Virus record (IMG/VR): IMGVR_UViG_3300047472_000231
Span: 1-64,000 of that record
Strand: one strand, 5' to 3'
From: a virus
DNA length: 64,000 nt
This document shows positions 5,830 to 49,069 of the stretch, in pieces. The notes beneath the pieces were generated by a model. It searched no databases, had not been told where the DNA came from, and saw only the letters and a program-made list of their open reading frames with translations. The first letter of the stretch is position 1, and every line of letters begins with the position of its first letter. Made by a program: the position numbers and the translations under genes.

Positions 5830-7032
5830 TCAGGCACCGAGTGCCGCGATCGCCTCCCTCAGATCGGTGGCCGTGTGCCAGTGCTGGAATCGTGGCGCCG
5901 ACAGCATCGAGCCGACACGGTGGGCGCGCTTGTTGATCCAGCTGATCTGGTCCTCGACGGGGAGCGCCAGCACCGGGGCTATCGCCTCGGCCGCCGCCTC
6001 GACCTCGCCGAGTTGAACCTGGGCGGTCGCCAGGTAGATGTGGCACAGCCGCTCGTCATCGAGGGAGCGCTGCTCCGGAGGCATCTGCTCCCACGATGCG
6101 ATAGAGGCCTCGGCCTCGGTCGCCGCGGTGCGCGCGTCGTCGCCGCCGTCCAGCCAGATCAGCGAGGACGCGGCGTAGTAGCGCTGCTTCGTCTCCGAGA
6201 ACTCGAAGAGGCCGGCCAGCGAATCGGGGCGCCGGACGCGCTCGCGTGCCTGCTCGGCAAGGTGCAGGGTGCGGTTGGCGGCCTTGCTGTCGCCGAGGTT
6301 CGCCAGGCACTGGACTTCACCGCAGAGGAGCCGCGCCTCCCCGGTGCCGGGAACGTCGCCGGCGTACTGGAGGCCGTCGCGGACGTAGTCGAGGGCGATG
6401 CCGTAGTCGCCGTTGAACCGCGCGATCAGGGACTGGGTGCCGCGTACCCACATCAGCAGCTCAGTGTCGCCTGCGTACTGGGCGCAGCGGCCCGCGGCGC
6501 GCGCGTGCTCTAACGCGGCGTCGGCGTCGCCAAGGTCGAGGGCCGCGTAGGCGAGGATGCCGGAGAGTCGTCCGGCGGCGACGTAGAGATCAGCCCGCTC
6601 GTTCGGGGCGTGGCGGTAGTCCTTGAGGCGCTGGAGCGCATCGCGGCGCAGCGTGTCGGCTCGGAGCAGCATCGGCGCGGGCGCCTGGGCGAGGTAGTCG
6701 ACTGCCGTCTCTTCGACTCCGGCATGCAGCTGGTCGAGTTCCAGGTCGGCGAGCGCCATGAGGTCGCGCGAGGTGGCGAGTGACGCAGCCAGGGTTTTTC
6801 GGGTAGCCGCCTGCTCCTGTCGCTGTGAATGCTCGCGAAGGTATTCGGCGACAAGCGCACCATTTGCACGCAAGGCGCTGTCTGCGGCTTCTGCCAGTTC
6901 CGCCGTTGGGGCTCGCCGTCCCGCTTCCACGTGGTGGATGTGGGTGCGGTGCATGAGGATTTGGGTGGACAGGTCAGCGAGGGTGAGTCCGGCGTCTTGC
7001 CGGTGTCGGCGGAGCTCCGTTCCGAAGGTCAT
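5830..7032 (-). CDS. XRE-family HTH regulator with C-terminal TPR-like helical domain
   Basis: N-terminal FGTELRRHRQDAGLTLADLS...HHVEAGRRAP; Ala-rich helical repeats. Confidence 0.85.
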   Translation of the reverse strand: MTFGTELRRHRQDAGLTLADLSTQILMHRTHIHHVEAGRRAPTAELAEAADSALRANGALVAEYLREHSQRQEQAATRKTLAASLATSRDLMALADLELDQLHAGVEETAVDYLAQAPAPMLLRADTLRRDALQRLKDYRHAPNERADLYVAAGRLSGILAYAALDLGDADAALEHARAAGRCAQYAGDTELLMWVRGTQSLIARFNGDYGIALDYVRDGLQYAGDVPGTGEARLLCGEVQCLANLGDSKAANRTLHLAEQARERVRRPDSLAGLFEFSETKQRYYAASSLIWLDGGDDARTAATEAEASIASWEQMPPEQRSLDDERLCHIYLATAQVQLGEVEAAAEAIAPVLALPVEDQISWINKRAHRVGSMLSAPRFQHWHTATDLREAIAALGA

Positions 7033-7163: not shown

Positions 7164-7463
7164 TTACTGCTCGGACTCTTTGCTCTCGTTGCCTTTTGGT
7201 GTCGCCTTTTTGGCGGGCCCTCTTCGAGGCTTGTCGCGCTCACGGAAGAACTCCTCTACGGGTTCCCAGTACATGAGCAGGTTCCGTCCGGACTTGAGGT
7301 ATCCATCGGGCGGGATGGGCCAGTCCGGGTCGGTCATCGCGATATGCCGAACGCCCTGTCTCGTGATCGAGCCCTCGATGATCTTCCGCTCAACGAGGCG
7401 CCTGGCGATCTCCGTGAACGTGACCAGGTCGGGCATCCCTCCTTTCTCGCCGTCAGTGTTCAT
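7164..7463 (-). CDS. Small AlpA/Xis-like wHTH regulator divergent from the transfer operon
   Basis: LVTFTEIARRL...ITRQGVRHIA...WPIP; start may be 7436. Confidence 0.7.
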   Translation of the reverse strand: MNTDGEKGGMPDLVTFTEIARRLVERKIIEGSITRQGVRHIAMTDPDWPIPPDGYLKSGRNLLMYWEPVEEFFRERDKPRRGPAKKATPKGNESKESEQ

Positions 7464-7493: not shown

Positions 7494-7522
7494 TTGTCAA
7501 GGCGTAAGAAGTCCTCTACTGT
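7494..7522 (+). promoter_or_regulatory. Sigma70/HrdB-type promoter of the transfer operon
   Basis: TTGTCA-17 nt-TACTGT. Confidence 0.6.
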
Positions 7523-7535
7523 CGAAGACGAACGA

Positions 7536-7643
7536 AGCCCCGACCGGTGGTTGCACACCAAATCGGGGCTGCTCAACAGCCCTCCCCGGTGGTTGCACAC
7601 CGGAGAGGGCCTGCCCGACCAGGTGGTTGCACACCCGGTCAGG
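7536..7643 (+). repeat. Three tandem hairpins sharing GGTG-GTTGCA-CACC
   Basis: GGTGGTTGCACACC at 7546, 7588 and 7622, each inside a different but self-complementary outer stem. Confidence 0.85.
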
Positions 7644-7680
7644 ACATCCGGAACCGCCTGAGCTACCAGGAGGACCAGAC

Positions 7681-8139
7681 ATGACAGATCGTACTGTCGA
7701 TCTGACCAGTACCGGAACCGGCCTGCTCGACGCACCGATGTCGCCGGCCGACCGCCTGGCCCACGACTCCGCCACCCACGTGACGTGGAGGGCCCGCGAG
7801 AACTACCTGCGCGGCCTGAACGTCAACGGCCGCATCCGCACCGCAGGCGACCAGCTGCTCGCCGACATGGCCAGCCGGTGGGCGCTCATCGAGGTCACCG
7901 TCGAGTACGTGTCGCCGGTAGCCCCGGACGGCACCATCGTCCTCGTGGTCGCTGGTCGCGACCGGCAGGGTGAGGCCCTCGTCCAGATCGACGCCCAGGA
8001 CCGGGCCGAAGCGCTCGACTGGATGGACCGCGACTACGCCTCCCTCCTCGGCAAGGCGACCGTCCTGTACGGGCAGCCCGCACTGGACCTGCGGCGCGCC
8101 ACCCTCGCCCAGCCGCAGAGCGTGAAGGCGGTGGCGTGA
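7681..8139 (+). CDS. Hypothetical protein, first gene of the transfer operon
   Basis: AGGAGG RBS, ATG at 7681. Confidence 0.7.
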   Translation: MTDRTVDLTSTGTGLLDAPMSPADRLAHDSATHVTWRARENYLRGLNVNGRIRTAGDQLLADMASRWALIEVTVEYVSPVAPDGTIVLVVAGRDRQGEALVQIDAQDRAEALDWMDRDYASLLGKATVLYGQPALDLRRATLAQPQSVKAVA

Positions 8140-8423
8140 TGGCCCGCCGGTTCAAGGACATGCAGACGCCGGAGCAGCAGTATGCGGCCCGTCAGGCGCC
8201 CGCGCTTCGACGGATCGCTTACCAGGCTGAGCAGCAGGCCGAGGCGCACCAGATGAGCGCCGACGTGTACGGGCGTAGCGGCCGGGACTACTCCGACCCG
8301 CAGAAGGCCGCGCGTGCCCAGCGGGAAGCCGACCGGCTGCGCGACCGAGGCAGGGGTTTGCGGGCGTCGGCGAACCGTGCCGAAGCCGAGGTCAAGCCGA
8401 AGCCGAAGCGGCGGTGGTTCTGA
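8139..8423 (+). CDS. Small basic helical protein
   Basis: TGATG coupling. Confidence 0.65.
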   Translation: MARRFKDMQTPEQQYAARQAPALRRIAYQAEQQAEAHQMSADVYGRSGRDYSDPQKAARAQREADRLRDRGRGLRASANRAEAEVKPKPKRRWF

Positions 8424-8590
8424 TGGCGCAGAAGATCCTCGCCGCCACCCAGGCCGGCCACCCGCGCGGCAGCTGGCCGGCGGAGGAGCAGGCGAAGCAG
8501 TTCCGCGACCAGGGCATCCCGGTGACCGTCGTCATGGACCAGGACAGCGACCGGTTCCTCGTGGTCTCGGACGAGGGCGACCAGCGATGA
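8423..8590 (+). CDS. Small hypothetical protein (MAQKILAATQAGHPRGSW...)
   Basis: TGATG coupling; translated by hand. Confidence 0.55.
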   Translation: MAQKILAATQAGHPRGSWPAEEQAKQFRDQGIPVTVVMDQDSDRFLVVSDEGDQR

Positions 8591-8775
8591 CCGACGCCGA
8601 GTACGCGGAGCTGCTCCGCAAGCTGCGCGAGCAGAACCACCAGTCCGAGACCCGGCCGAAGTAGCGGCCCCAAGACCGCCGCGGCAGCGGTCCGACAATC
8701 CCCCCGTCCCGCTGCCGCGGCTCTCCACCCCGCACCACCCCTCCCATTCCGATTGACCACGTGAAGGGCACCCCC

Positions 8776-9009
8776 ATGTCTCCCTACATCCTTTCCGACG
8801 CCGATCTGGCCACCAAGACCCAACTGGCGAAGCTGCGCCGGGCCCGCACCACGGTCGCCGATGCGATGACCGAGCTGTTCGGCGACGACTTCACCCGCGC
8901 CCTCTACCGCGAGACGACTTACGCGGTGCCGGACTTGGAGCGGCAGACGTGCCCCGACCACCACGACTGGCGGACGCACTGCCTGCCCCTGCACCTCAAG
9001 GCCGCCTGA
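8776..9009 (+). CDS. Small Cys/His protein
   Basis: GAAGGG RBS; CPDHHDWRTHC motif. Confidence 0.6.
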   Translation: MSPYILSDADLATKTQLAKLRRARTTVADAMTELFGDDFTRALYRETTYAVPDLERQTCPDHHDWRTHCLPLHLKAA

Positions 9010-9045
9010 ACTCCCCACCTCCCCACCCCAACCCGAGAGGAACTC

Positions 9046-9576
9046 ATGACCACCGCCATCGCCTCCCGCACGTTCACCGACGCCGACACGGCAGCCGCCG
9101 TACAGATCGCCGCAGCCGAGCCCCGGTTCTGGAACGGCCCGTCCGGCGAGCCGGCGACCGGAGAGCAGATCGCCCGCCACGTCGATGCCGTCCTGGCGAT
9201 CCTGTCCGAGCGCGGCTGGGCCCGCGTTCACGGCGACCCGGACCCGGAGCCGCCGGGTGTCGACGAGTCGATGTCGTCGAAGGGCCTGCTCCTCGGTTTC
9301 CTGCGCTGGGTGCTCGACATGGCCCGCGACTCCGGCCCCCTCACCCTGGCGATCGCCATGCTGCGGGTGCAGGACGCGGTAGGCGACCAGGACACCTACT
9401 CGGCGGCCGGCCGCGTCATGGACGCCCTGCTCCGGGCCCGCACCGGCGCCCTGTACGTCAGCCACACCGCGTGGGCGGGGAAGCAAGGCCGCACCTTCGA
9501 CGAGGTGCGCGACCTGCTGGAGACCGCCGCCGTATTCGCCCGCACCCACGGGCCGGCGGCGACGGCCGCCGCCTGA
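9046..9576 (+). CDS. DUF6197-like protein
   Basis: ILSERGW...AWAGKQGRTFDEVRDLLETAA C-terminal signature. Confidence 0.6.
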   Translation: MTTAIASRTFTDADTAAAVQIAAAEPRFWNGPSGEPATGEQIARHVDAVLAILSERGWARVHGDPDPEPPGVDESMSSKGLLLGFLRWVLDMARDSGPLTLAIAMLRVQDAVGDQDTYSAAGRVMDALLRARTGALYVSHTAWAGKQGRTFDEVRDLLETAAVFARTHGPAATAAA

Positions 9577-9746
9577 TGGCCAAGCCCGCCCCGCCTGGCG
9601 AGTGCGGGCAGTGCTGGCAGCACGCCCACGACCCGAGCATCCACCGCCGGCTCGCCCCCCGCGAGGACTGCCCGCAATGCGTGGACCACATGATCAACGG
9701 CCACGGTGCGCACCTCGTGCCCAAGAAGAAGTCCAGCTGGTGGTGA
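9576..9746 (+). CDS. pRL2-8-like small Zn-binding protein of Streptomyces plasmid type
   Basis: PPGECGQCWQHAHD...REDCPQCVDHMINGH, recognised from memory. Confidence 0.6.
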   Translation: MAKPAPPGECGQCWQHAHDPSIHRRLAPREDCPQCVDHMINGHGAHLVPKKKSSWW

Positions 9747-9785
9747 CCGACCGGCCGCCACCGTCCACCGCATCGAAGGAGACCC

Positions 9786-9974
9786 ATGGCGATCAAGAAG
9801 CGTGACCGGGTGACCGTCACGTCCAGCCCGGACGCGCCCGGCCTGGTCGGGCGAACCGGCGAGGCCTGGCCGACCGGCGACGGACGGGTGCAGGTCGACG
9901 GCATCCGCGACCCGCAACTCGACCTGGCGCTCGGGACGCCGACGTTCACCGAAGACCAGCTCCGCAAGGCCTGA
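9786..9974 (+). CDS. Small SH3-like hypothetical protein
   Basis: AAGGAG RBS. Confidence 0.6.
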   Translation: MAIKKRDRVTVTSSPDAPGLVGRTGEAWPTGDGRVQVDGIRDPQLDLALGTPTFTEDQLRKA

Positions 9975-10053
9975 CCGACTGCCCGATCCGCCCGTCTCGC
10001 ACGGGCGGTGAGGGGAACCGCTCAGCGTTCCAACCCGACCCGAGGAGAACCGC

Positions 10054-10251
10054 ATGCCGAAGTTCAACACCGTCGCGAAGGTCACCGGCCGCGACGGCAC
10101 CACCCGCGAGGTCACCGGCACCGTCCAGAACGACAGCCCCCTGTACGGGCACGACAGGGCCCGCAACGACGCCGCCGACCAGCTCAGCAAGAACATCGCG
10201 TCCGGCGAAAAGGTCGACACCAACAACATCCAGGTCCGCTACGGCCACTGA
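10054..10251 (+). CDS. Small hypothetical protein
   Basis: GAGGAG RBS. Confidence 0.65.
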   Translation: MPKFNTVAKVTGRDGTTREVTGTVQNDSPLYGHDRARNDAADQLSKNIASGEKVDTNNIQVRYGH

Positions 10252-10279
10252 CTCTCAATCACCCAGCGAGGAGCCTCCC

Positions 10280-10576
10280 GTGCACGCCTATCTGATCACT
10301 GCGAAGCCTGGCCGGCCGACGCGTGCCGTCCGGTTCGTGGGCCGGTGGACGGTGCGGCTCCTCGCCCTGCTGGTGATGGTCGGCCTTGGCGCCGTCGTGT
10401 TCCCGCTGCGCGCTGCCCGCCCGGTCCTCAACTACGTGGCCACCAGGGCGGCCTGGTTGGAGCTGTGGGCGGCCTCGGTGACCGGGATCGGCCCGGTCGG
10501 GGCTGCTGTCGGCTCCGGCCTGACCGACGAGTTTGTCCGCGAATTCCACAAGGCGCGCACCGGCGCGCCCGCCTAG
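10280..10576 (+). CDS. Small membrane protein (spread-protein candidate)
   Basis: GAGGAG RBS; hydrophobic segment LLALLVMVGLGAVVF. Confidence 0.6.
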   Translation: MHAYLITAKPGRPTRAVRFVGRWTVRLLALLVMVGLGAVVFPLRAARPVLNYVATRAAWLELWAASVTGIGPVGAAVGSGLTDEFVREFHKARTGAPA

Positions 10577-10589
10577 AGAGGAGATCTGC

Positions 10590-11054
10590 ATGCTCCGTAA
10601 GCCCCGCTGGTCGGTGACCTGGCCGACCCGCCCGAACGGCGTCTACACCCAGCTGGTCCGCGCCGGCGACCCGACCGACGCAGTCCGGGTCGCCGCCGAA
10701 CTCGAGTGGCAGACCACGCCCGGCTACTCGGTCGCCTTCGACTACACGCCGCAGGTGTGGCGGCTGCTCCGCCCGTACCGGCTGCGCTCCCGCTCGGTCG
10801 CTGGCCCCGACTACCCGGACACGGTGCCTGGTGAGGTGGCGTTCACGTCGGAGCCGCTGGACCTCGCCGCGATCGCCGACCAGGTCGTGTCTGTGATCCG
10901 CGTCTCGGACGCCCTCGGCAAGGACAAGCACGAGCTGCGCGCTGCGGTCGGCCAGATCGTCGGCAACCTGATCCCCGCCGAGGCCGAGCAGGTCCTGGCC
11001 ATCGTTGCCGCAGAGACCCGGGAGATCAACGCGTACACAGGCGGCTGGGCCTGA
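10590..11054 (+). CDS. Hypothetical protein
   Basis: GAGGAG RBS, ATG at 10590. Confidence 0.65.
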   Translation: MLRKPRWSVTWPTRPNGVYTQLVRAGDPTDAVRVAAELEWQTTPGYSVAFDYTPQVWRLLRPYRLRSRSVAGPDYPDTVPGEVAFTSEPLDLAAIADQVVSVIRVSDALGKDKHELRAAVGQIVGNLIPAEAEQVLAIVAAETREINAYTGGWA

Positions 11055-11257
11055 TGCCGATCACGTTCCGCAAGAGCTTCCGGATCCTGCCCGGCGTCCG
11101 TCTCAACATCAACCGGCGCAGCTGGTCGGTGACGTTGGGCGGCGGCCGGGGCCCGCACCACACGATCTCGTCGACCGGACGGCGCACCACCTCCATGGAC
11201 CTGCCCGGCCCGTTCGGTTACAGGTCCACCCGCACCCGACGCAACCGAGAGGGCTGA
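11054..11257 (+). CDS. DUF4236 domain protein
   Basis: FRKSFRILPGVRLNINRRSWSVTLGG signature. Confidence 0.75.
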   Translation: MPITFRKSFRILPGVRLNINRRSWSVTLGGGRGPHHTISSTGRRTTSMDLPGPFGYRSTRTRRNREG

Positions 11258-11258
11258 C

Positions 11259-11468
11259 ATGCGCTTCCTCGACTACCTCAACCGCCGCTACACGGTGCGC
11301 GAGTCGTTCACGCTCCTGATCCCCGCCGTGGCCGTCGTCCTCGGCGTCCAGCTCGGCCTGACCGCCCTCGGCATCAGCCGGCCGGTCGCCGCCCTGATGT
11401 CCCTCACCGCAGCCCTCGGCGTCTACTTCGCCACCGCCGCCCTCATCGACCGCCGCACCCGCGGCTGA
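11259..11468 (+). CDS. Small two-TM membrane protein (spread-protein candidate)
   Basis: Two hydrophobic helices. Confidence 0.65.
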   Translation: MRFLDYLNRRYTVRESFTLLIPAVAVVLGVQLGLTALGISRPVAALMSLTAALGVYFATAALIDRRTRG

Positions 11469-11487
11469 CCCGAAAGGACCGAACGTC

Positions 11488-12816
11488 ATGACCGCCAGCC
11501 CGCCCAAGGCCAACGGCAGCACCAGGCCGCGCACGCCCCTGCAGTTCGCGGACTGGCGTATCACCGCCGACCCCGAGGAGCAGCGCACCCCCCAGCCCGA
11601 GCCGGCCGCAGACCGGGCTGACCTTGTTGCCGCGGCGGAGGCTGCCGCGATCCGCGCCCGCGGCGAGGCCGAAGCCGAGGCCATCCGCATCGCGGCCGAA
11701 GCCGCAGCCCAGGCCGAGATCGTCAAGGCCGAAGAGGAAGCCCGCAAGCAGAAGATCGTCAACGACCGGGCCGCCCGGAAGGCCGCCGAGGAGCAGGCCG
11801 CATCCAACGCGCGGATCGCCGATCACAACCGGCGCCGCGATGAAGCCGACCGCGCCCGAGCCGACGCCCACGAAGCGGCCCAGGCCGAGAAGGCGACCGA
11901 GCGGAAGGCCGCCGAAGAGATCGCTGAGGCGGACGACAAGTGGCGGGCCTACGCGATCCGCTTCGCAATCGTCTGCGGCATCGTCTCCCTGCCCGTCCAG
12001 ATGTCGTTCTTCTGGAACCCGCACGCCCCCTGGATGGCCGCCGCCCCGATCATGCTCGAAGGCGCCGCCTGGGTCGTCCACCGCGGCGCCCGAGCCGCCG
12101 CGGTCAGCAAGCGGCCCGTCTGGCACTACCGGGCCATCGTCTGGCTGCTCGCCCTGATCGCCGCCGCGATCAACCTCTATCACGGGCTCCACAGCTTCGA
12201 CCCCGGCACCGCCCTCGCGACCGCGTTCGCATCCATCGCCGGCCCCGGCGTCTGGGATCTCCACGAGCACGGCCGCATCCGCCGCCGTGACGGGGTCCTG
12301 ACGCGGAAGGAGCGGAAGGCAAAGAAGCGGGCCGATGCCCGCGCCGAGGCTCTGAAGAAGCTCGAGGAGAAGGCGCAGCGCTTCGAGAAGGAGGCCGCAG
12401 ACAAGGCCGCCGAGGAGGCTCGCCAGAAGCTCGCGGCGGACCGTGAGGCGACGTACCCCAAGGTGTGGGACGAGGCGAAGAAGATCGCTGCGGCGGTCGG
12501 CGAGACCACCGTCACCGACGCCGTCTGGGCGCGCGCCTACCGCAACATCCAAGGCACCGACCCCGGCGAGTCCATCGAGTCCATCACCGCCCGCCGTGCC
12601 GCCGAGAAGCGCGTCCAAGCCGCCCTCACCGGGACCCCCGTGAACACCCTCAGCAAGACCACGAACGCGCAGCGTGCGATCCAAACACCCCGCTCTTCGT
12701 ACAAGCCTGTTCCGCCCCGCCGCACACCCGGCGACACGCCTCGCTACAGCCGTGCCGCCGGCCGCGCGCACGGCGACCTCCTCCGCCGCAAGAACACCCG
12801 CACGAAGGACCAGTGA
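11488..12816 (+). CDS. DUF2637/SpdB-like membrane protein with coiled coils
   Basis: Coiled coil, about four TM helices, second coiled coil and basic tail; directly upstream of the TraB-like gene. Confidence 0.65.
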   Translation: MTASPPKANGSTRPRTPLQFADWRITADPEEQRTPQPEPAADRADLVAAAEAAAIRARGEAEAEAIRIAAEAAAQAEIVKAEEEARKQKIVNDRAARKAAEEQAASNARIADHNRRRDEADRARADAHEAAQAEKATERKAAEEIAEADDKWRAYAIRFAIVCGIVSLPVQMSFFWNPHAPWMAAAPIMLEGAAWVVHRGARAAAVSKRPVWHYRAIVWLLALIAAAINLYHGLHSFDPGTALATAFASIAGPGVWDLHEHGRIRRRDGVLTRKERKAKKRADARAEALKKLEEKAQRFEKEAADKAAEEARQKLAADREATYPKVWDEAKKIAAAVGETTVTDAVWARAYRNIQGTDPGESIESITARRAAEKRVQAALTGTPVNTLSKTTNAQRAIQTPRSSYKPVPPRRTPGDTPRYSRAAGRAHGDLLRRKNTRTKDQ

Positions 12817-14816
12817 TGACGACCGAAGCCACCCCTGAGTTCCCCGCCGACTGGGACCTCACGAAGGTGATCCCCGGCGAGCTGCACGTGCCCGACGACC
12901 TGTCCGGCGAGGACATCGCGCCCGGCATCGTCGTCCCCTACGAGCCGCGCCTGCCCGCCCTGCGCACCGCAGGCTCGGCCGCCATGGTCGTCGCCGCGAC
13001 AACCGGGCGGGCGTGCGGGCTCACCGCCCGCTGGTTCTTCACCGGCACCCGCGCGGTCGGCTTCCTCGGCTGGCGCTACGTCCGCGCCCACGACCTCCAA
13101 GAGGTCATCGGCGGCATGTCGAAGGCCGGCGACTGGAACAAGGTCGACATCGTCCGCAAGAAGCGGTGGCGGATCCTCGGCTGGGCCGCCGGCATCACCG
13201 CCGGCCTCAACCTCGCCGGCTGGATAGCCCTCGCCTCCGGTGCGGGCATGGACGCAGGCGGCGCAGCGATGGCCATCCCGCCCACCATCACCGGAGCTGT
13301 CGTCGCCGCGGCGGTCACCCTGTACGGCCGCTACCGGACCAACCGGCCCGAGCTCGCCCCGCAGATGATGATCGCCGATCAGGACGACCCCAACAGCGAT
13401 GAGCCGTTCCCGCTGGCGCTCGCTACGTCGCCGGGCATGGTCGAGGACTGCGTGTCCCGAGCCCTGGCCTGGGAGGGCATCGACGTCCGGCAGGTTCGCG
13501 CGCTCGGCTTCCACGGCAAGTTCTGGGAGATCGACGTGATCCTCAAGGGCTCCACCCCGGGCAAGGTCAATGCGGTCGCCGAGCAGCTGGACACCCACTT
13601 CAACATCAAGCAAGGCGGGACCCTGATCGACCCTGACCCGCAGCAGTCCGCGCACATCGTGCTGCGCCTCGTCACCGGCAACCCGTTCGACGACATGCCG
13701 AAGCCAGCCATCCACGCCCCGAACAGCCTAGACATCACCCAGGCGCACAACTTCGGCCGGTGCATGGACGGTTCCCTGCTCGACCTCGTCCTCGAGGGCC
13801 TGCGGATCCTCGTCATCGGCGTGTCCGGCGCCGCCAAGTCCACCGGCGTGCTGCGTGACCTCGCCGAGGTCATTACCGCCTGCCACAACGCGATCGCCAT
13901 CGAGATGGACCCGGTCAAGGACGGGCTGCGTGAGTTCGACGGCGCCATGGCCGTCCCGCCGATCCGCGGCACCAAGGCGTGCGAGGAGTGGCTCGAAAAC
14001 CTGGTGAAGATGGCGAAGGGCCGTCAGGTCGTCCGGAACCGGCTCAACATGGGCGACACGTGGGTGGCCACCCGGGAACGCCCGGCGATCTTCGCGCTGG
14101 TTGATGAGTTTATCTACCTCAGCCCCCGAGGGAAGGAGCTGTTCATCGAGCTTCTGCGGCTGGGGAAGCAGTCTGGGATCTACCCGATCGCCGCCGGGCA
14201 GGACGCCACCTCCGACGCCATGGGTGATGCGATCGCCGACTCCTTCACCCTGCAGGTCATGCTCGCCTCCCGGTGGGACGACATCCGCATCGTGTTCGGG
14301 CAAGGTGCCGCCGCGAAGGGCTTCCGCCCCGACCGGCTTGTGCCCGCCCAGAACCGGCAGATAAAGAACGACGCCGGCCAGTCCTACATCAAGGGCCCCG
14401 GTCTGGATCGGCCGCTGCTGTACGGGTGGAACGAGCACAGCGGCGAGGCGATCAAGCGTGCCGTCGAAGCCCGCAAGCAGGCGGGGCGGCCGTGGTTCGA
14501 CCGGGACACCCTCGCCGCCGCCGGCCTCCTGCACCTGGCCGATGGCGGGGCGGGGGAGCGGATCATAGGGGACCGGAAGATCGCGGCCGACTGCATGGCG
14601 GTCATGGCTGACGCGGGCGTGGACCGGATGAAGACCGAGGCGCTCGCCGAGGCGCTCGCCCAGTTCGCTCCGGACGCATACGGAGATCTGACGGCCGCCG
14701 AGCTGCGGGCGCTGCTGAAGGCGGCTGGGGCCGGGTCACCGGTGACCCTCGGCTACCTCAACGGCGAGAACAACCCGCGCGGATTCAAGCTCGAAGCCCT
14801 GACTGCTTTGACCTAG
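12816..14816 (+). CDS. traB: TraB-like FtsK/SpoIIIE DNA translocase
   Basis: N-terminal TM helices; Walker A VIGVSGAAKST; Walker B IFALVDEF; LLRLGKQSGIYPIAAGQ; C-terminal wHTH-like domain. Confidence 0.8.
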   Translation: MTTEATPEFPADWDLTKVIPGELHVPDDLSGEDIAPGIVVPYEPRLPALRTAGSAAMVVAATTGRACGLTARWFFTGTRAVGFLGWRYVRAHDLQEVIGGMSKAGDWNKVDIVRKKRWRILGWAAGITAGLNLAGWIALASGAGMDAGGAAMAIPPTITGAVVAAAVTLYGRYRTNRPELAPQMMIADQDDPNSDEPFPLALATSPGMVEDCVSRALAWEGIDVRQVRALGFHGKFWEIDVILKGSTPGKVNAVAEQLDTHFNIKQGGTLIDPDPQQSAHIVLRLVTGNPFDDMPKPAIHAPNSLDITQAHNFGRCMDGSLLDLVLEGLRILVIGVSGAAKSTGVLRDLAEVITACHNAIAIEMDPVKDGLREFDGAMAVPPIRGTKACEEWLENLVKMAKGRQVVRNRLNMGDTWVATRERPAIFALVDEFIYLSPRGKELFIELLRLGKQSGIYPIAAGQDATSDAMGDAIADSFTLQVMLASRWDDIRIVFGQGAAAKGFRPDRLVPAQNRQIKNDAGQSYIKGPGLDRPLLYGWNEHSGEAIKRAVEARKQAGRPWFDRDTLAAAGLLHLADGGAGERIIGDRKIAADCMAVMADAGVDRMKTEALAEALAQFAPDAYGDLTAAELRALLKAAGAGSPVTLGYLNGENNPRGFKLEALTALT

Positions 14817-14825
14817 AAAGTCCCC

Positions 14826-14981
14826 TGCTCAAGAGGTGCTCAACACTGCTCAACCGCAGGTCAGAGCCGCTCAATCACCTGCTCAAGCACGTGCTCAGCG
14901 AGATCGTGAGCAGGGCCTGAGCGGCACCTTGAGCGGCTGTGACCTGCAACGGAGCACCCCTGAGCAGTCGTTGAGCACCTC
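14826..14981. repeat. clt-like locus: phased TGCTCAA repeats followed by inverted TGAGCA repeats
   Basis: (T)GCTCA(A) at 14826, 14837, 14847, 14868, 14880, 14892; TGAGCR or GGAGCA at 14907, 14918, 14930, 14951, 14961, 14972; starts ~10 bp after the traB stop. Confidence 0.8.
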
Positions 14982-15024
14982 GCAAACCATCACAAACCGA
15001 TCACCTGTCCGAGGAGCCCCGATC

Positions 15025-15801
15025 ATGCCCGCGAAGCGTCAGCCGGCCCGCCGGACCACCCCGGCGAAGCGCCGCAAGCCGTCCGCCCGCAACCACCCCG
15101 CCCGCCGCGTCAAGATCCCCCGCAAGGGCCCGCTGCACCACCAAATCGGCGCCCGCATGGTCCTGTTCGCCGTCTCCCACCTCGACACCCACGGCGACAC
15201 CGTCCGCTCCCGCAAAGACGCCGCCATCCTCCGCGCCACCCACAAGGGCTGCACCACCTGCCAGGGCAACGGGCAGATCTTCACCAAGGGCAAAGACGGC
15301 TCCTTCACCGGCTCCAAGCCCTGCCCAGCCAAACCCACCAAGGAGCGCGTCTCTCGGTGGGAGGTGTACAAGGCCAGCCGCTTCGGCGCCGACAAGAACA
15401 CCGGTCTCGTCGGCTGGGCCTGCCCCTGCGGCAAGAAGGAGAAGCCCCGCTACCGCGACGCGAAGGAAGCCACCAAGGCCCTGCGCACCCACGAACGGCA
15501 GAAGCATGGCGGCAAGAGCGTCGGAGGCGCCTGGTACGCGCAGGCCACTGAGGGCGCCAAGCAGGCTGCAGACCCGAAGCCCGAGCCGATGCCGTCAAAG
15601 GTCGTCCCCAACTCCGGCATGACCGACGAGCAGTGGGTCGGCCAGAACAAGGGCATGCCCGTCGGTAAGGCCATCGCCAAGGGCAAGTGCTGGAAGTGCT
15701 CCGGCGAAGGCAAGCTCCACGGGACCTTCGGCAACGAGCAGATCCTTACCGTCTGCCCGGAATGCAGGGGCAGCGGCAAGCCGACGAAGGTCGCCGCCTG
15801 A
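15025..15801 (+). CDS. Basic protein with DnaJ-type CxxCxGxG zinc fingers
   Basis: GAGGAG RBS; CTTCQGNG, CWKCSGEG, CPECRGSG. Confidence 0.75.
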   Translation: MPAKRQPARRTTPAKRRKPSARNHPARRVKIPRKGPLHHQIGARMVLFAVSHLDTHGDTVRSRKDAAILRATHKGCTTCQGNGQIFTKGKDGSFTGSKPCPAKPTKERVSRWEVYKASRFGADKNTGLVGWACPCGKKEKPRYRDAKEATKALRTHERQKHGGKSVGGAWYAQATEGAKQAADPKPEPMPSKVVPNSGMTDEQWVGQNKGMPVGKAIAKGKCWKCSGEGKLHGTFGNEQILTVCPECRGSGKPTKVAA

Positions 15802-16307
15802 TGATCGCGCTCACCACGGCCAATACAGCCGCCGCCCCGGTCGAACTCGACCTGGACGCGCGGCTCGCCATGGTGGGCGCGGTCATGGATGAACGCTGCA
15901 ACCTTGCCGTCCTCGCCGTCGACGTGAACAGCGCGCACATCGTCACACCCGAACTCTCTCAGGTCACGGGCCCGTTGCCCCTCGTGCCCACCATGGCACC
16001 CAACCCGTACTCCACGCCGATCGCCGCCACCCTCCATCGGGCTCGCCTCCAGCTCGACGCCGACGGCTGGTGCACCGGGCAGCTGCGCGACGAGCAAGGC
16101 GCCGCATGCCTGATCGGCGTCATCCGCAGCGAAGCCAGCAGTCGCAGCACGGCAGATGATGCGTGCGTCCTGCTGCTGGAGGCGATCCGTAGGGACTTCC
16201 CCACCGCCGAAACCGTGCCCAGCTGGAACGACAACCAGCGCGACCCGCGCATCCCCGCCCGCTACCTCGAGCGGGCCGCCGAACTCGCCCACAACCGCAA
16301 CCTCTAA
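15801..16307 (+). CDS. DUF6197-like protein
   Basis: GWCTGQL...ACLIGVIR...VPSWND. Confidence 0.65.
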   Translation: MIALTTANTAAAPVELDLDARLAMVGAVMDERCNLAVLAVDVNSAHIVTPELSQVTGPLPLVPTMAPNPYSTPIAATLHRARLQLDADGWCTGQLRDEQGAACLIGVIRSEASSRSTADDACVLLLEAIRRDFPTAETVPSWNDNQRDPRIPARYLERAAELAHNRNL

Positions 16308-16323
16308 CCCGACAGGAACCGCC

Positions 16324-16545
16324 ATGCCCAAGCCCACCGCCGAACAGCTCCGCGTCGACGCCGAGGAGAACGAACTCCTCGCCGCGTTCCGCCGCGCCCA
16401 AGCCGACCTCTACGCCAACGCCGCCCGCGAATCGGCCGCCGGAATCTTCCACGAAACCCCGGAGTATCTGCGCCTCAACCAGGCCGTCATCGACGCCGGA
16501 CGGAAGCTGCCCAAGGGGCTCAAGCGCCTCGCCAAGGACATCTGA
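16324..16545 (+). CDS. Small hypothetical protein
   Basis: AGGA RBS; precedes a terminator. Confidence 0.6.
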   Translation: MPKPTAEQLRVDAEENELLAAFRRAQADLYANAARESAAGIFHETPEYLRLNQAVIDAGRKLPKGLKRLAKDI

Positions 16546-16560
16546 CCTGCCGCGCGATCG

Positions 16561-16588
16561 CGCCCCCGGCCGATCCGGTCGGGGGCGT
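16561..16588 (+). terminator. Intrinsic terminator ending the transfer operon
   Basis: CGCCCCCGGCCG...CGGTCGGGGGCG stem followed by TTCT. Confidence 0.65.
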
Positions 16589-19389: not shown

Positions 19390-19563
19390 TCGCCCGCGCG
19401 GCTCGCGCTCGTCTGCGCAGGAGGCCCGTGATGCGCACCCAGACCTCCGGCCTGTGCCTGCTCCTGTCGCTGCTGTTCGCGTGGTGCGTCCTCGCCCCGC
19501 ACAACGTGCACGCCGTAACCCCGCAGCCCGCCGTCACCGTCACCACCCCGTAAGGAGAACCCG

Positions 19564-21518: not shown

Positions 21519-22340
21519 ATGACGGAGCCTACCTGCGCAGTCAACGGGTGCGACAGGCCGTCGCGCACGCGTGGCTGGTGCAATGCCCACTACCTGAAGT
21601 GGTATCGAACTGGCGACCCGGAATACCAACGACCTGCTCGCGTAAAACCTGCGTGTTCAGTGGACGGCTGTTTGCGTCCGGCGCACAGTCGGGGCTGGTG
21701 CAAGACGCACTACTTGCGATGGTGGTCAAAGAGCGACCTCGGCAAGGCGGCCATCCGGGCGTACAACAACGTACGAGCAGACTGCTCGTTCGACGGCTGC
21801 AACAACACGTCCAGTGCGGTCGGGTTGTGTGGTGGGCACTGGAGGCAGCAGGCGAAGGGTCAGGCGCTACGACCGCTCAAGAGGAAGACCGATCCGCAGG
21901 CTCGGGACGACGCCGGCCGGAAATTGTGCGGCACCTGCGACGGGTGGCTCCCTGTCAGTCGCTTCACCCGGAGCATCAGCCGATCGGACGGCCTGGCGGC
22001 GCGCTGTACCAAGTGCGAACGCAGTCAGGCGCTGAAGCGGAAGTTCGGGATCACTCTTGAACAGTACGAGGAGCTGCTTGAGGCGCAGGCTGGTGGCTGC
22101 GCTGTATGCGGAAAGACCCAGCAGGAGAACCGCCGCCGACTTGCAGTCGATCACGACCACTCCTGCTGCCCCGGGCAGATCACTTGCGGCAGGTGCATCC
22201 GCGGCCTGCTGTGCAGCAGCTGCAACCTTCATTTCGGTGCGATAGGGGACAGTCTCACTCACATCGAGGCGATGGCGGCCTATCTCCGCTCCAAGACGAG
22301 CCTGGAGGGCGCCTGCCCAGTTGATGCGGATACGCAGTGA
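21519..22340 (+). CDS. Endonuclease VII-family homing endonuclease with N-terminal Zn repeats
   Basis: YEELLEAQAGGCAVCG...LAVDHDH...IRGLLCSSCN. Confidence 0.85.
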   Translation: MTEPTCAVNGCDRPSRTRGWCNAHYLKWYRTGDPEYQRPARVKPACSVDGCLRPAHSRGWCKTHYLRWWSKSDLGKAAIRAYNNVRADCSFDGCNNTSSAVGLCGGHWRQQAKGQALRPLKRKTDPQARDDAGRKLCGTCDGWLPVSRFTRSISRSDGLAARCTKCERSQALKRKFGITLEQYEELLEAQAGGCAVCGKTQQENRRRLAVDHDHSCCPGQITCGRCIRGLLCSSCNLHFGAIGDSLTHIEAMAAYLRSKTSLEGACPVDADTQ

Positions 22341-23914
22341 CCGAGTACTTGCATGACCCGCGCACAGGTGAGCCGTACAACTCGGCGACCTTCGATCTGG
22401 ACGACTACCTCGCGGGGATCGACGCGCGCCTCCTTGCATCGAGCGAGGGCCGGAAGGTGCTCACCCGTCTTGATCCACTCCTGTTCGGCCTCCTCTACCT
22501 GCCCCACCACATGAAGGGGAAGCAGACCGGCGAACAGATCACCCTCGCCGACTGCCACCTGGACTGGGCCCGCCGGGCTCTCCAGTGGGTCCGCCCCGTC
22601 ACGGAACCGCGGAGCGCCCGAGACGTGTTCATCAGTCCGCGCGAGTCCGCGAAGAGCACATGGTGGTTCTTGATCATTCCGATGTGGGCTGCCGCTCATG
22701 GACTCGTGCGCTTTGTGGCTGCGTTTTCAGATAGCGCCAGCCAGAGCGAGACGCACCTGGCCACGTTCAAAGCGGAGCTCGACGGCAATCGGCTGCTACG
22801 CGAGGACTTCCCTAGCCTCACGAAGCCGGCCACCCGCCCCCGCGGCTCCGTTGTTGCCGACCGCCAGTCGCAGATCCAGATGGCGTCCGGGTTCACCTTC
22901 GCTGCGCGCGGTATCGACTCCGGCAACCTTGGCCTCAAGGTCGGTCGCGAGCGCCCGGATGCCTTGATCTGCGACGACATTGAGAGCGGGGAGGCCAATT
23001 ACTCGATTCACCAGGCGAAGAAGCGACTCTCCACGCTGCAGAACGTGATCCTTCCCCTGTCGGAGTTCGCACGGGTGGTCGTCGTGGGCACCACCACCAT
23101 GGCGGGAGGGCTGATTCATCAGTGCGTCAAGAGCGTCACGACCACGGAGGAGCCCGCCGAGTGGATTAAGGAAGAGAAGTTCCGCGTCCACTACTACGAG
23201 CCGATCGTCAACACCGAGGCTGGCGAACGATCGATCTGGCCCGCCAAGTGGCCCATGAGCTACATGGTGCAGGTCCGTGCGACGCGCAGCTTCAAGCTCA
23301 ACTTCCTGAACCAGCCGTCCAGCGCGAACTCCGATTACTGGACCGAGGGCGACTTCACCTACGGCCGCTTCCCGGTGGCCCGTACCTACCTGTCCGTCGA
23401 TGGCGCTGTCACAACCAAGACGAAGTCGGACTACACGGGACTGGCGGTTGTCGGCTGCGCCCCCGCGCGACCGGCGCGCGAGGGTAGCCGGGCCGTACCA
23501 GCGCGATGCCTGGTCGAGCACGCCGAGGCGGTAAAGCTGAAGGGTAGGGCGCTTCGGGATCGAGTCCTGCAGCTGCTGGATTCGTATCCGGAGATTGGCG
23601 CGATCCTCGTTGAGGCGAATCAGGGTGGGGACCTTTGGCATGAGGTGTTCCATGACCTGCCGGTGCGGGTGGTCACCTTCTCGAACTCTGAAGCCAAAGA
23701 GGTCCGCGCGGCCCGCGTATTGAACCTCTACCAGCTGTTGCCCGCGCGTGTGGTCCATGCCGAGGCCCTGCCTGCCCTGGAAGAGCAGATGTGCGCGTTC
23801 CCGAATGGGCTCAACGATGACCTCGTCGACGCCGTGGGGAACCCGGTGCTGCGATTCCTGCGGCCCCCGCCCAGGAAGGCGCCTCCGTCGGCGGAGAGCG
23901 CCAGCTACGTCTAG
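22337..23914 (+). CDS. terL: Terminase large subunit
   Basis: Walker A SPRESAKST, Walker B ALICDD, RNase H-like LSVDGA...DDLVDA. Confidence 0.88.
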   Translation: MTEYLHDPRTGEPYNSATFDLDDYLAGIDARLLASSEGRKVLTRLDPLLFGLLYLPHHMKGKQTGEQITLADCHLDWARRALQWVRPVTEPRSARDVFISPRESAKSTWWFLIIPMWAAAHGLVRFVAAFSDSASQSETHLATFKAELDGNRLLREDFPSLTKPATRPRGSVVADRQSQIQMASGFTFAARGIDSGNLGLKVGRERPDALICDDIESGEANYSIHQAKKRLSTLQNVILPLSEFARVVVVGTTTMAGGLIHQCVKSVTTTEEPAEWIKEEKFRVHYYEPIVNTEAGERSIWPAKWPMSYMVQVRATRSFKLNFLNQPSSANSDYWTEGDFTYGRFPVARTYLSVDGAVTTKTKSDYTGLAVVGCAPARPAREGSRAVPARCLVEHAEAVKLKGRALRDRVLQLLDSYPEIGAILVEANQGGDLWHEVFHDLPVRVVTFSNSEAKEVRAARVLNLYQLLPARVVHAEALPALEEQMCAFPNGLNDDLVDAVGNPVLRFLRPPPRKAPPSAESASYV

Positions 23915-31880: not shown

Positions 31881-32224
31881 CCTGGACGGTCGGGCTGGCC
31901 GAACGGCTGGAACAGATCGTATGGGTCCTCGACCACCAGGGCGATATCGACGCCGACTTCCTCGCGATCTACGGCATCGACCTCTATGAGCAAGAGGTCG
32001 ACGGGCCCCGCTACTTCGCCCTCGCCCACCGGCTGACCGCCTACCAGGGCGTGATGACCGCCCGCGTCGACCAAGAGCAAGACCAGACCAGCAGCACAAC
32101 CACCCGCACCAGTAGCACCCAGCCCGCCCAACAGGGCGGCGGCGAGAACCGTGAGGTCTCGCTGACGGCGTTCCGGGTCATGTTCCCCGGAATCGTGAGC
32201 GGAGGAAGCGCAGGTGGCGGGTAG
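31865..32224 (+). CDS. -1 frameshift extension of the tail chaperone (gpGT-like)
   Basis: -1 frame is open from the slippery site: ...IVWVLDHQGDIDADFLAIYGIDL...LTAYQGVM...; stop at 32222-32224. Confidence 0.75.
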   Translation, partial: GKSGLTWTVGLAERLEQIVWVLDHQGDIDADFLAIYGIDLYEQEVDGPRYFALAHRLTAYQGVMTARVDQEQDQTSSTTTRTSSTQPAQQGGGENREVSLTAFRVMFPGIVSGGSAGGG

Positions 32225-45556: not shown

Positions 45557-45557
45557 G

Positions 45558-49067: not shown

Positions 49068-49069
49068 CC

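What the first reader, a model, noticed from the sequence alone, without database searches (positions are those of the whole stretch)
7494..16588. A complete tailed phage carrying a Streptomyces TraB/clt conjugation module (candidate conjugative phage)
Seen: one promoter-to-terminator operon holding a pRL2-8-like gene, several small membrane proteins, a DUF2637/Spd-like membrane protein, an FtsK/SpoIIIE ATPase with TM anchors, and a phased repeat array directly after it. It sits in the same element as intact terminase, capsid, tail, lysis, integrase and immunity genes. No separate integrase or rep gene lies next to the module, so it does not look like an independent AICE insertion. Established: Streptomyces plasmids and AICEs transfer dsDNA using TraB alone acting on clt repeats, and Spd proteins spread the element within the mycelium. 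Inference: this phage may move both as a virion and hypha-to-hypha as an excised circle, bypassing receptor-based resistance.
Basis: partly seen in the sequence, partly recalled or inferred. Interest (0 to 1): 0.92.

Follow-up and report, generated by a model that had tools for sequence, protein, structure and literature searches.

The report
Streptomyces phage carrying TraB transfer module
A temperate tailed Streptomyces phage from a rhizosphere metagenome carries, as a conserved part of its own genome, the plasmid-type membrane DNA pump (TraB), its matching docking repeats and a spread-type membrane protein, so its DNA may also move between or along hyphae without virus particles; this is untested here, and the plasmid-phage pZL12 is reported in papers I read to transfer conjugally.

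Summary
Positions 7738-16545 form one plus-strand gene block. It holds a pRL2-8-like gene, small membrane proteins, a SpdB2-like four-helix membrane protein and a membrane-anchored FtsK-fold ATPase. A real repeat array (14826-14978) lies directly after the ATPase gene. Terminase, portal, capsid, tape measure, endolysin and two tyrosine recombinases lie in the same 76.6-kb viral contig.

The ATPase is not chromosomal FtsK. Its nearest plasmid relative is the TraB-like gene of the Streptomyces plasmid pFP1, which has the same gene order and a homologous array.

All 28 related loci keep the four-gene core and an array, but the repeat word differs between lineages. The only protein columns that track the word lie in the ATPase's C-terminal winged-helix domain.

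Phages with closely related structural genes carry other Tra/FtsK-type ATPases at the same position. The module is therefore native and exchangeable, not a single AICE insertion or a misassembly.

Transfer itself is untested. Precedents exist: pZL12, SpdB2 homologues in phiC31 and VWB, and FtsK-like genes in lytic Streptomyces phages. This scan has already noted the same theme in about 49 other genomes. "Complete" is overstated, because CheckV estimates 84% completeness.

The parts
5830..6759 (-). NsdA-family TPR-like regulator, leftward, upstream of the module (the open frame may extend to 7032)
   Evidence: NCBIfam NF053720 1.9e-24; phrog_10886, transcriptional regulator, 2.9e-11
7164..7463 (-). 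99-aa gene transcribed divergently from the module; candidate local regulator, no family match
   Evidence: gene call; no Pfam or PADLOC hit
7494..7737 (+). Leader region: TTGTCA-N17-TACTGT promoter-like site and three copies of a hairpin core GGTGGTTGCACACC (7546, 7588, 7622)
   Evidence: the core occurs only here in the genome and in none of the 28 related loci
7738..10251 (+). Variable small genes of the block, including a DUF6197 protein (9046-9576) and a pRL2-8-like 56-aa protein (9576-9746)
   Evidence: Pfam DUF6197 1.3e-6; 64% identity to the pFP1 pRL2-8-type gene; patchy conservation across loci
10280..10576 (+). Conserved 98-aa membrane protein, a core member
   Evidence: present in 27 of 28 related loci at 45-91% identity; hydrophobic helix at 27-45
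11259..11468 (+). 69-aa protein with two predicted transmembrane helices, an accessory member
   Evidence: found in 5 of 28 loci
11488..12816 (+). SpdB2-like membrane protein: Ala/Glu-rich coiled N-terminus, four central hydrophobic helices and a charged C-terminus; a core member
   Evidence: sequence; DUF2637 E 0.0024; homologue of the pFP1 DUF2637 protein, E 2.6e-13; in 27 of 28 loci; same architecture as described for SpdB2
12813..14816 (+). TraB-like dsDNA translocase: N-terminal membrane anchor, FtsK-fold motor and C-terminal winged helix (aa 587-667)
   Evidence: phrog_12531 6e-66; pFP1 TraB-like gene 34% identity, E 2.5e-59, over aa 188-666; AF2 model pLDDT 93.5; Foldseek top hits are FtsK motor domains, E 6e-17
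14826..14978 (.). clt-like array: six direct (T)GCTCA(A) units, a central GCAGGTCA.AGCCGCTC inverted pair, and five inverted units; spacing about 10-12 bp
   Evidence: a homologous array follows the TraB-like gene in pFP1
15025..15801 (+). Conserved 258-aa protein: very basic N-terminus and C-terminal CxxC zinc finger; a core member of unknown role
   Evidence: in 28 of 28 loci at 46-83% identity; DnaJ-type zinc finger 1.5e-5, below the cut-off; a gene of the same size and position in pFP1-type plasmids
15762..16545 (+). Second DUF6197 protein (15762-16307) and a 73-aa protein (16324-16545) that close the block
   Evidence: Pfam DUF6197 1.9e-16; gene calls
16560..16588 (+). GC-rich 13-bp hairpin, a likely terminator of the block

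Best explanation
The block is a Streptomyces plasmid-type double-stranded-DNA transfer and spreading module of the pFP1 lineage. It is a resident, exchangeable cassette of a lineage of temperate tailed Streptomyces phages.

Proposed mechanism:
- The 667-aa protein sits in the membrane through its N-terminal helices and forms an FtsK-like ring.
- Its C-terminal winged helix docks on the roughly eleven phased TGCTCA units just after its own gene.
- The motor then pumps the circular (excised or replicating) phage genome as double-stranded DNA through the hyphal envelope or septal cross-walls.
- The SpdB2-like four-helix membrane protein, the small membrane proteins and the basic zinc-finger protein assist.
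- The outcome would be movement of the phage genome between hyphae or between compartments of one mycelium without virions.

Shown here: the gene content, the FtsK fold, the homology and synteny with a Streptomyces plasmid, the conservation of the array, and the co-variation of the array word with the winged helix.

Inferred: hexamer formation, DNA pumping, and any actual transfer.

Confidence, split: about 0.85 that this is a TraB-type translocase with its cognate site and native to the phage; about 0.5 that it moves the phage genome between or along hyphae. The figure given is for the whole statement.
For: 1. Fold. The AF2 model of aa 181-667 has pLDDT 93.5. Its best PDB matches are FtsK motor domains (2iut, 6t8o, 2ius; E 6e-17 to 1e-15; TM-score by target 0.61-0.70), followed by the conjugation coupling protein TcpA. 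Walker A and B motifs and N-terminal transmembrane helices are present.

2. Homology. The protein is 34% identical (E 2.5e-59, aa 188-666 including the C-terminal domain) to the TraB-like gene of plasmid pFP1. It has no significant pairwise match to chromosomal FtsK.

3. Synteny. pFP1-type plasmids have the same order: small genes, DUF2637 protein, translocase, array, a gene of about 258 aa, and later pRL2-8.

4. Array homology. After its TraB-like gene, pFP1 has direct CTCTAC and inverted GTAGAG units around the same CCGCAGGTCA...TGACCTGCG core.

5. Conservation with changing word. All 28 related loci keep an array between the translocase gene and the next gene. The architecture is the same but the word differs: TGCTCA, TGCTCG, TGCTAC, CCCTCG, or CCGTCTA/CCGGCTA.

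6. Co-variation. Among the four core proteins, only the translocase has columns that perfectly separate TGCTCA loci (n=5) from TGCTCG loci (n=11). These are positions 606, 645 and 646, all in the winged helix. The adjacent downstream gene has none, and N-terminal identity does not track the word.

7. Site-like symmetry. Mirror symmetry holds in the units but not in the spacers, as expected for protein sites and not for a selected hairpin.

8. Native to phages. At least 22 of 26 IMG/VR contigs with the module also have a capsid, tape-measure, terminase or portal gene. Some have terminal repeats and some are proviruses.

9. Exchangeable cassette. Phages with 75-94% identical portals carry other Tra/FtsK-type ATPases at the same place, resembling pIJ101 Tra or AICE Tra, pZL12.71c, or pFP1.

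10. Contiguity. Depth is even at about 26-35x across the module and the late genes in run X1. An independent run bridges the 16318-16347 junction with an identical contig.

11. [quoted passage not shown]
Against: - No transfer, pock formation or expression data exist for this element or any relative, and no RNA run was listed.
- Pfam FtsK_SpoIIIE, NCBIfam and PDB sequence searches do not recognise the protein.
- Similarity to the best-studied Tra protein available here, pIJ101 Tra, is marginal (profile E 2.8e-4). pSVH1 TraB could not be compared.
- The functional status of pFP1 traB rests on a paper I could not open.
- No GntR repressor flanks the module, unlike in plasmids. The only GntR-type gene is about 40 kb away.
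- Eighty-nine lytic Streptomyces phages of about 130 kb carry a homologous ATPase with no detectable match to the membrane partner or the basic protein. A non-conjugative phage role for this ATPase family is therefore possible.
- The winged-helix codons lie next to the array, so part of the co-variation could be co-inheritance of one recombination block.
Confidence: 0.55

Rival explanations
1. Inheritance, not transfer. The translocase and its array act like FtsK or SffA for the phage's own DNA. They would pump the extrachromosomal or replicating phage genome out of closing vegetative or sporulation septa, so that each compartment or spore keeps a copy.
For: The fold is that of FtsK, whose natural job is septal DNA clearance guided by short oriented words. 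The element has no ParA or ParB, so another segregation device could be useful. pFP1-type plasmid TraB-like proteins even carry an FtsK gamma domain.
Against: The closest non-phage relatives sit in plasmid regions with Spd-type and pRL2-8 genes. The element has a normal integrase, and several relatives are proviruses, for which segregation is provided by the chromosome. The units form a local mirror-symmetric cluster and are not spread and oriented along the genome as KOPS-like words are.
Confidence: 0.17
2. A lytic-cycle helper only. During infection the pump moves replicating phage DNA across cross-walls into neighbouring compartments and so enlarges the burst. It would have no role in the lysogen or in mating.
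For: Homologous ATPases are kept by 89 lytic Streptomyces phages of about 130 kb that have no lysogeny. The module lies between early and late genes on the same strand. Thoma et al. proposed that phage SpdB2 homologues assist spreading of phage DNA.
Against: The lytic phages have no detectable match to the SpdB2-like gene or the basic protein, so their ATPase may do something else. Here the block has its own divergent regulators and terminator, like a separately controlled plasmid operon.
Confidence: 0.15
3. The module is a separate mobile element (AICE or plasmid fragment) inserted into this phage, or a chimeric join made by the metagenome assembler.
For: The record comes from a rhizosphere metagenome. 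Logan unitigs break at 16318-16347 and in 7790-10030, where related genomes diverge. A perfect 17-bp direct repeat (6809-6825 and 19456-19472) brackets the block.
Against: - No integrase or Rep lies within or beside the block.
- The 17-mer is about what chance gives (about 0.2 expected, by my own estimate) and lies inside coding sequence.
- Depth is even across the block and the late genes, and an independent run bridges the right junction.
- Twenty-six other viral contigs, many from isolate genomes, have the same core inside phage genomes.
- Related phages have other Tra-type ATPases at the same place.
Confidence: 0.04
4. The array is not a transfer site. It would be an operator or terminator that controls the downstream basic zinc-finger gene, or a site bound by that protein.
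For: The array lies in the intergenic region just upstream of 15025-15801 and can fold (-104 kcal/mol for 208 nt). The downstream protein is very basic and has a zinc finger.
Against: No column of the downstream protein tracks the repeat word, while three columns of the translocase winged helix do. The spacers are not complementary. Published clt sites lie at or just after the 3' end of tra genes and consist of 7-9-bp direct and inverted repeats.
Confidence: 0.07

Closest known systems
Transfer region of Streptomyces circular plasmid pFP1 (NC_006912) and its relatives, for example the NBC_00285 plasmid CP108056
   Same: - The translocase is homologous: 34% identity, E 2.5e-59, including the C-terminal domain.
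- The gene order matches: DUF2637 membrane protein, translocase, repeat array with the same CCGCAGGTCA core, a gene of about 258 aa, and a pRL2-8 gene.

   Different: - The plasmid proteins are longer (863-935 aa) and carry an N-terminal FtsK gamma domain.
- The plasmids have divergent GntR repressors, a small zinc-binding gene and a MOBF relaxase.
- The repeat word is CTCTAC.
- The plasmids have no virion genes; the portal has no match in 72,556 plasmids.
Streptomyces plasmid-phage pZL12 / phage ZL12 (GQ919031; Zhong et al. 2010, J Bacteriol 192:3747)
   Same: It is a tailed-phage genome that also carries an FtsK/SpoIIIE-like tra gene with adjacent membrane genes. Its conjugal transfer is reported to need the major tra gene and two neighbours.
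   Different: - pZL12 is maintained as a plasmid with ParA and ParB; this element has integrases and no ParA or ParB.
- The tra gene pZL12.71c belongs to a different lineage (profile E about 0.01).
- The virion genes are unrelated: pZL12 is absent from the 20 portal hits.
- No clt-like array was examined in pZL12.
TraB/clt/Spd system of pSVH1, pIJ101 and pWTY27
   Same: - The translocase has a membrane anchor, an FtsK-like motor and a C-terminal winged helix.
- The clt consists of short repeated words at or after the 3' end of the tra gene.
- A SpdB2-type protein is present, with a coiled-coil N-terminus and four transmembrane helices.

   Different: - Sequence similarity to pIJ101 Tra is only marginal.
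- The Pfam FtsK_SpoIIIE model, which detects pIJ101 Tra, misses this family.
- There is no adjacent GntR repressor.
- The host replicon is a phage.
FtsK-like DNA translocase of large lytic Streptomyces phages (Coruscant, Jay2Jay, NootNoot and others)
   Same: The motor domain is homologous: 36-38% identity over aa 190-566, in 89 phage records.
   Different: In the lytic phages the similarity covers the motor domain only. No match to the SpdB2-like or basic partner genes was found in them. The gene sits among tRNA genes near the terminase.

Membership tests
Streptomyces TraB-type conjugative dsDNA translocase | FtsK/SpoIIIE-type motor domain with Walker A and B motifs | tested here: met
   The Foldseek top hits are FtsK motor domains (E 6e-17; TM-score by target up to 0.70) on a model with pLDDT 93.5. 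GVSGAAKST and VDEF motifs are present. The Pfam PF01580 sequence model does not hit, but it also fails or falls below its cut-off for the pFP1-type and pZL12 proteins.
Streptomyces TraB-type conjugative dsDNA translocase | N-terminal membrane anchor | tested here: met
   Hydrophobic helices lie between about aa 55 and 175. This is prediction only.
Streptomyces TraB-type conjugative dsDNA translocase | C-terminal winged helix that reads short repeated words of the clt | tested here: inconclusive
   Residues 587-667 of the protein (407-487 of the model, which starts at residue 181) show helix-strand-helix-helix-hairpin topology at pLDDT about 95. Three columns in this domain, and none elsewhere in the four core proteins, separate TGCTCA loci from TGCTCG loci. 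Binding was not measured, and linkage to the array is a caveat.
Streptomyces TraB-type conjugative dsDNA translocase | Homology to an experimentally characterised Tra or TraB | tested here: inconclusive
   Homology to the pFP1 TraB-like gene is strong. However, the paper on the pFP1 conjugation locus could not be read. The statement that its traB is functional is from my memory of the abstract. Similarity to pIJ101 Tra is marginal (E 2.8e-4). No pSVH1 TraB sequence was available.
[quoted passage not shown] | Cluster of short direct and/or inverted repeats at or just after the 3' end of the tra gene | tested here: met
   Eleven units lie in 153 bp, starting 10 bp after the stop codon. The array is conserved in 28 of 28 loci and in pFP1. 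This matches the published descriptions for pWTY27, pJV1, pIJ101 and pSVH1.
[quoted passage not shown] | Required in cis for transfer | not testable with these tools
   Needs a mating assay with an array deletion.
Spd (spread) proteins, SpdB2 type | Integral membrane protein with an N-terminal coiled coil, four transmembrane helices and a C-terminal domain, encoded beside traB | tested here: met
   The sequence of 11488-12816 shows this layout, compared with the description in Thoma et al. 2015. The DUF2637 match is below the cut-off. It is homologous to the pFP1 DUF2637 protein. It has no detectable similarity to pIJ101 SpdB, which itself has no Pfam match.
Plasmid tra operon regulation | Divergent GntR-type repressor (TraR/KorA) next to the operon | tested here: not met
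   The neighbours are an NsdA-family TPR regulator and an unclassified 99-aa gene. The only GntR helix-turn-helix gene is at 54592-54873.
AICE (actinomycete integrative and conjugative element) | Own integrase and replication gene adjacent to the transfer genes, bounded by att repeats | tested here: not met
   No integrase or Rep lies between 4969 and 21393. The recombinases are at 52-58 kb. There are no convincing flanking repeats.
Phage-plasmid of the pZL12 type | Plasmid maintenance genes (ParA/ParB, RepA with iterons) together with virion genes | tested here: not met
   Virion genes are present. ParB_N and ParA-type AAA_31 are absent from the 76.6-kb record. A phage-type replication initiator lies at 72385-73542. 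The record may be incomplete (84%).

The most novel reading that the evidence does not exclude
A whole lineage of integrating temperate Streptomyces siphophages has two routes of spread. One is by virions. The other is as naked double-stranded DNA pumped by a phage-encoded TraB along and between hyphae. The translocase cassette and its docking words are swapped between phages and plasmids as a specificity unit. Receptor-based resistance would then not stop spread within a mycelial community.
Probability: 0.4. Interest if true: 0.8.

Novelty: new variant of a known kind. Interest (0 to 1): 0.6.

Why it matters
If the module works, these phages blur the line between virus and conjugative element in mycelial bacteria. 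A prophage could colonise neighbouring hyphae without lysis, capsids or receptors. That would change how phage spread, resistance and gene flow in soil Streptomyces should be modelled.

The co-varying winged helix and repeat word also give a natural series of matched pump-and-site pairs for studying how TraB/FtsK-type motors choose their DNA. Several related elements sit in sequenced isolate genomes, so the idea is directly testable in ordinary laboratory strains.

Tried and rejected
- Megablast of the module against phage and plasmid collections found no match.
- The single genome-contig scan, run with one protein, returned only two loci.
- The papers on pZL12 (PMC2897331) and on pFP1/pFP11 (PMC2423013) are not held. 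SCP2 is not in the plasmid collection.
- Pfam, NCBIfam, PADLOC and PDB sequence searches gave nothing for the ATPase.
- The first AF2 model, built on 13 close sequences, was unusable (pLDDT 43.5). It was replaced by a 66-sequence alignment.
- phrog_38 as a general terminase probe hit only one of ten relatives, so capsid and tape-measure families were used instead.
- The sigma-70 and terminator consensus scan found no promoter and no terminator at the block ends.
- No RNA holder was listed among the sequencing runs.
- One MAFFT run timed out and was redone on trimmed domains.
- I considered an AICE insertion, a misassembly, an RNA hairpin and an operator for the downstream gene; reasons for rejecting each are under the rival explanations.

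Full report
**What the record is.** The window is the first 64 kb of a single 76,639-bp virus record. It has no terminal repeat, and CheckV estimates it at 84% complete. Near-identical DNA occurs only in rhizosphere and soil metagenome runs. G+C is about 68-70%, so I called genes by third-position G+C.

Every close protein relative that carries an organism name is from Streptomyces. The host is therefore almost certainly Streptomyces.

**The phage.** PHROGs identifies:
- an HNH/endonuclease VII gene (21660-22340), the large terminase (22337-23914), the portal (24014-25555), the major head protein (27457-28371), a 1547-aa tape measure (32214-36857) and a minor tail protein (38501-41365);
- a peptidase and an endolysin at 48255-49966;
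- an exonuclease, a replication initiator with an HNH insert, and a DNA methyltransferase at 65.9-75.9 kb.

Pfam finds two tyrosine recombinases, at 52175-53317 (plus strand) and 56709-58001 (minus strand), and a reverse-strand sugar epimerase and glycosyltransferase cassette. The portal is at most 35% identical to that of any sequenced phage and has no match in plasmids. Because the integrase lies in the middle of the record, the contig represents the free (attP) form and not a provirus.

**The block.** From 7738 to 16545 all genes are on the plus strand and closely packed. Upstream lie two leftward genes: an NsdA-family TPR regulator and a 99-aa gene. Then come a promoter-like TTGTCA-N17-TACTGT and three copies of a hairpin core. 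A 13-bp GC hairpin follows the last gene.

- a pRL2-8-like gene (9576-9746);
- membrane proteins at 10280-10576 and 11259-11468;
- a 442-aa protein with a coiled Ala/Glu-rich N-terminus and four hydrophobic helices. Its DUF2637 match is weak, and it is homologous to the DUF2637 protein of pFP1;
- the 667-aa ATPase.

The layout of the 442-aa protein matches the published description of SpdB2.

**The ATPase.** Sequence models for FtsK_SpoIIIE, NCBIfam and PDB chains do not detect it. The Pfam model also listed no match on the contig carrying the homologue (L002) when run over that whole Streptomyces genome. PHROGs places the protein in an FtsK/SpoIIIE-like family (6e-66).

A search of 1.84 billion representative proteins found only 189 relatives, so this is a small, distinct family. 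With 66 of them as an alignment, AlphaFold gave a confident model of residues 181-667 (pLDDT 93.5). Its best structural matches are FtsK motor domains, then the conjugation coupling protein TcpA, then EccC. The last 80 residues form a winged helix.

**Relation to plasmids.**
- tblastn finds the protein in 45 Streptomyces or Kitasatospora plasmids. The alignments that reach the C-terminus are to pFP1 and similar 40-60-kb plasmids.
- In pFP1 and a sister plasmid the order is: GntR repressors, small genes, a DUF2637 protein, a zinc-binding gene, a translocase of 863-935 aa, an intergenic array, a gene of about 258 aa, and further on pRL2-8.
- The pFP1 array has direct CTCTAC and inverted GTAGAG units around the same CCGCAGGTCA...TGACCTGCG core as the phage array.
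- By pairwise and profile comparison the phage protein matches pFP1 TraB-like at E 2.5e-59. It matches pIJ101 Tra, pZL12.71c and a chromosomal FtsK only marginally or not at all.
- In a tree of the motor domain, the phage family forms its own clade beside clades that hold the pFP1 plasmids and the lytic phage Coruscant.
- The title of Zhang et al. 2008 refers to the conjugation loci of pFP11 and pFP1. That its traB is functional is my recollection of the abstract, because the paper is not held.

**The array is real and specific.**
- Five of the twelve TGCTCAA words in the genome lie within 150 bp.
- Twenty-six IMG/VR contigs and two Streptomyces genome loci encode relatives of the ATPase at 53-83% identity.
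- Four genes are kept in essentially all of them: 10280-10576, 11488-12816, the ATPase, and 15025-15801.
- Every one has an array between the ATPase gene and the next gene. The architecture is the same but the word is different: TGCTCA, TGCTCG, TGCTAC, CCCTCG, or CCGTCTA/CCGGCTA.

I then asked which protein tracks the word. Across the four core proteins, only three alignment columns perfectly separate the five TGCTCA loci from the eleven TGCTCG loci. All three (606, 645, 646) lie in the ATPase winged helix. Identity in the rest of the ATPase does not follow the word.

The gene on the other side of the array has no such column. This argues against simple co-inheritance of neighbouring DNA, although it does not exclude it. 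Mirror comparison of the two arms shows matching units and non-matching spacers. That is the pattern of protein sites and not of a selected hairpin.

**Native or inserted?**
- No integrase, Rep, ParA or ParB lies near the block.
- The only notable flanking repeat is a 17-mer of marginal significance inside coding sequence.
- At least 22 of the 26 module-bearing viral contigs have a capsid, tape-measure, terminase or portal gene. Several have terminal repeats or are proviruses.
- Forty-three contigs share the portal at 67-97% identity. Among them, the closest (L055 and L056, with gene 16324-16545 at 95-97%) lack the pFP1-type genes. At the same position L055 has a different FtsK_SpoIIIE-like gene, L063 a pIJ101/AICE-Tra-like gene, L078 a pZL12.71c-like gene (E 2e-33), and L077 a distant pFP1-like set.
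- The translocase cassette is therefore a fixed but exchangeable slot in this phage lineage.
- Logan contigs of the likely source run tile the region at even depth (about 26-35x). They break exactly at this mosaic boundary (16318-16347). A contig from an independent run crosses the boundary without a difference.

**What is already known.**
- pZL12 (phage ZL12, GQ919031) is a Streptomyces plasmid-phage with ParA and ParB, virion genes, an FtsK/SpoIIIE-like gene and two large neighbours. [quoted passage not shown]
- Thoma et al. 2015 state that SpdB2 homologues occur in some actinophages (phiC31 and VWB) and might help spread phage DNA.
- Eighty-nine lytic Streptomyces phage records annotate a homologous 'FtsK-like DNA translocase'.
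- No sequenced phage in the 50,697-record collection has a detectable match to the SpdB2-like or basic partner genes of this module.
- Literature searches found no description of integrating temperate phages with a TraB-clt-SpdB2 set.
- This scan has noted the same theme 56 times in at least 49 genomes. It is recurrent, not unique to this window.

**Verdict.** The reading 'TraB/clt/Spd-type module native to a tailed phage' is well supported by fold, homology, synteny, conservation and co-variation. The step to 'conjugative phage' remains an inference. Two live alternatives are septal segregation and purely lytic-cycle spreading. It is a new variant of a kind for which one laboratory precedent is cited.

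Noticed in passing
window 7537-7635: Three copies of a 23-nt unit with the hairpin core GGTGGTTGCACACC lie between the promoter-like site and the first gene of the block. The core occurs nowhere else in the genome and in none of the 28 related loci, so it is a lineage-specific control element (operator or RNA leader).
   Followed up: partly
window 6809-6825 and 19456-19472: A perfect 17-bp direct repeat (GCCTGCTCCTGTCGCTG) brackets the module. Both copies lie in coding sequence, and about 0.2 such pairs are expected by chance in this stretch by my own estimate.
   Followed up: partly
window 16318-16347: This is a mosaic boundary. Unitigs of the source run break here, and the closest portal relatives (L055, L056) share the sequence to the right at 95-97% protein identity but carry different genes to the left.
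   Followed up: yes
window 54592-54873 (-): A short (93-aa) GntR-type helix-turn-helix gene is the only GntR in the record and lies about 40 kb from the module. Homologues lie 6-8 kb upstream of the translocase in L020 and L021. It could be a trans-acting TraR/KorA analogue.
   Followed up: partly
L044:5990-8581 and L029 (pFP1-type plasmids): The plasmid TraB-like proteins carry an N-terminal FtsK gamma domain (Pfam 2.2e-18) that is about 59% identical to the C-terminus of a chromosomal Streptomyces FtsK. The phage proteins lack it.
   Followed up: partly
window 43665-47280 (-): A reverse-strand cassette with an NAD-dependent sugar epimerase/dehydratase and a GT1-family glycosyltransferase lies between the tail and lysis genes.
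   Followed up: no
window 52175-53317 (+) and 56709-58001 (-): There are two tyrosine recombinases: one Xer-like (SAM_1 N-terminus) and one typical phage integrase. The integrase sits mid-record, so the contig is the free form of the phage.
   Followed up: no
window 9046-9576 and 15762-16307: Two DUF6197 paralogues lie inside the block. The second is kept in 8 of 28 related loci. Their role is unknown.
   Followed up: no
L043 (Streptomyces phage Coruscant, 73077-74921): In the large lytic phages the homologous ATPase (614 aa) lies in a tRNA-rich stretch just after the terminase. No match to the SpdB2-like or basic partner genes was found in these phages.
   Followed up: partly
G000:C1:72385-73542 (outside the window): The replication initiator carries an inserted HNH endonuclease domain (phrog_5718, 1.7e-155).
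   Followed up: no
window 10574-11055, 8144-8452 and 11217-11486: Contigs from other rhizosphere runs skip or replace these accessory genes while keeping the core. Natural variants without 10590-11054 and 11259-11468 therefore exist.
   Followed up: partly
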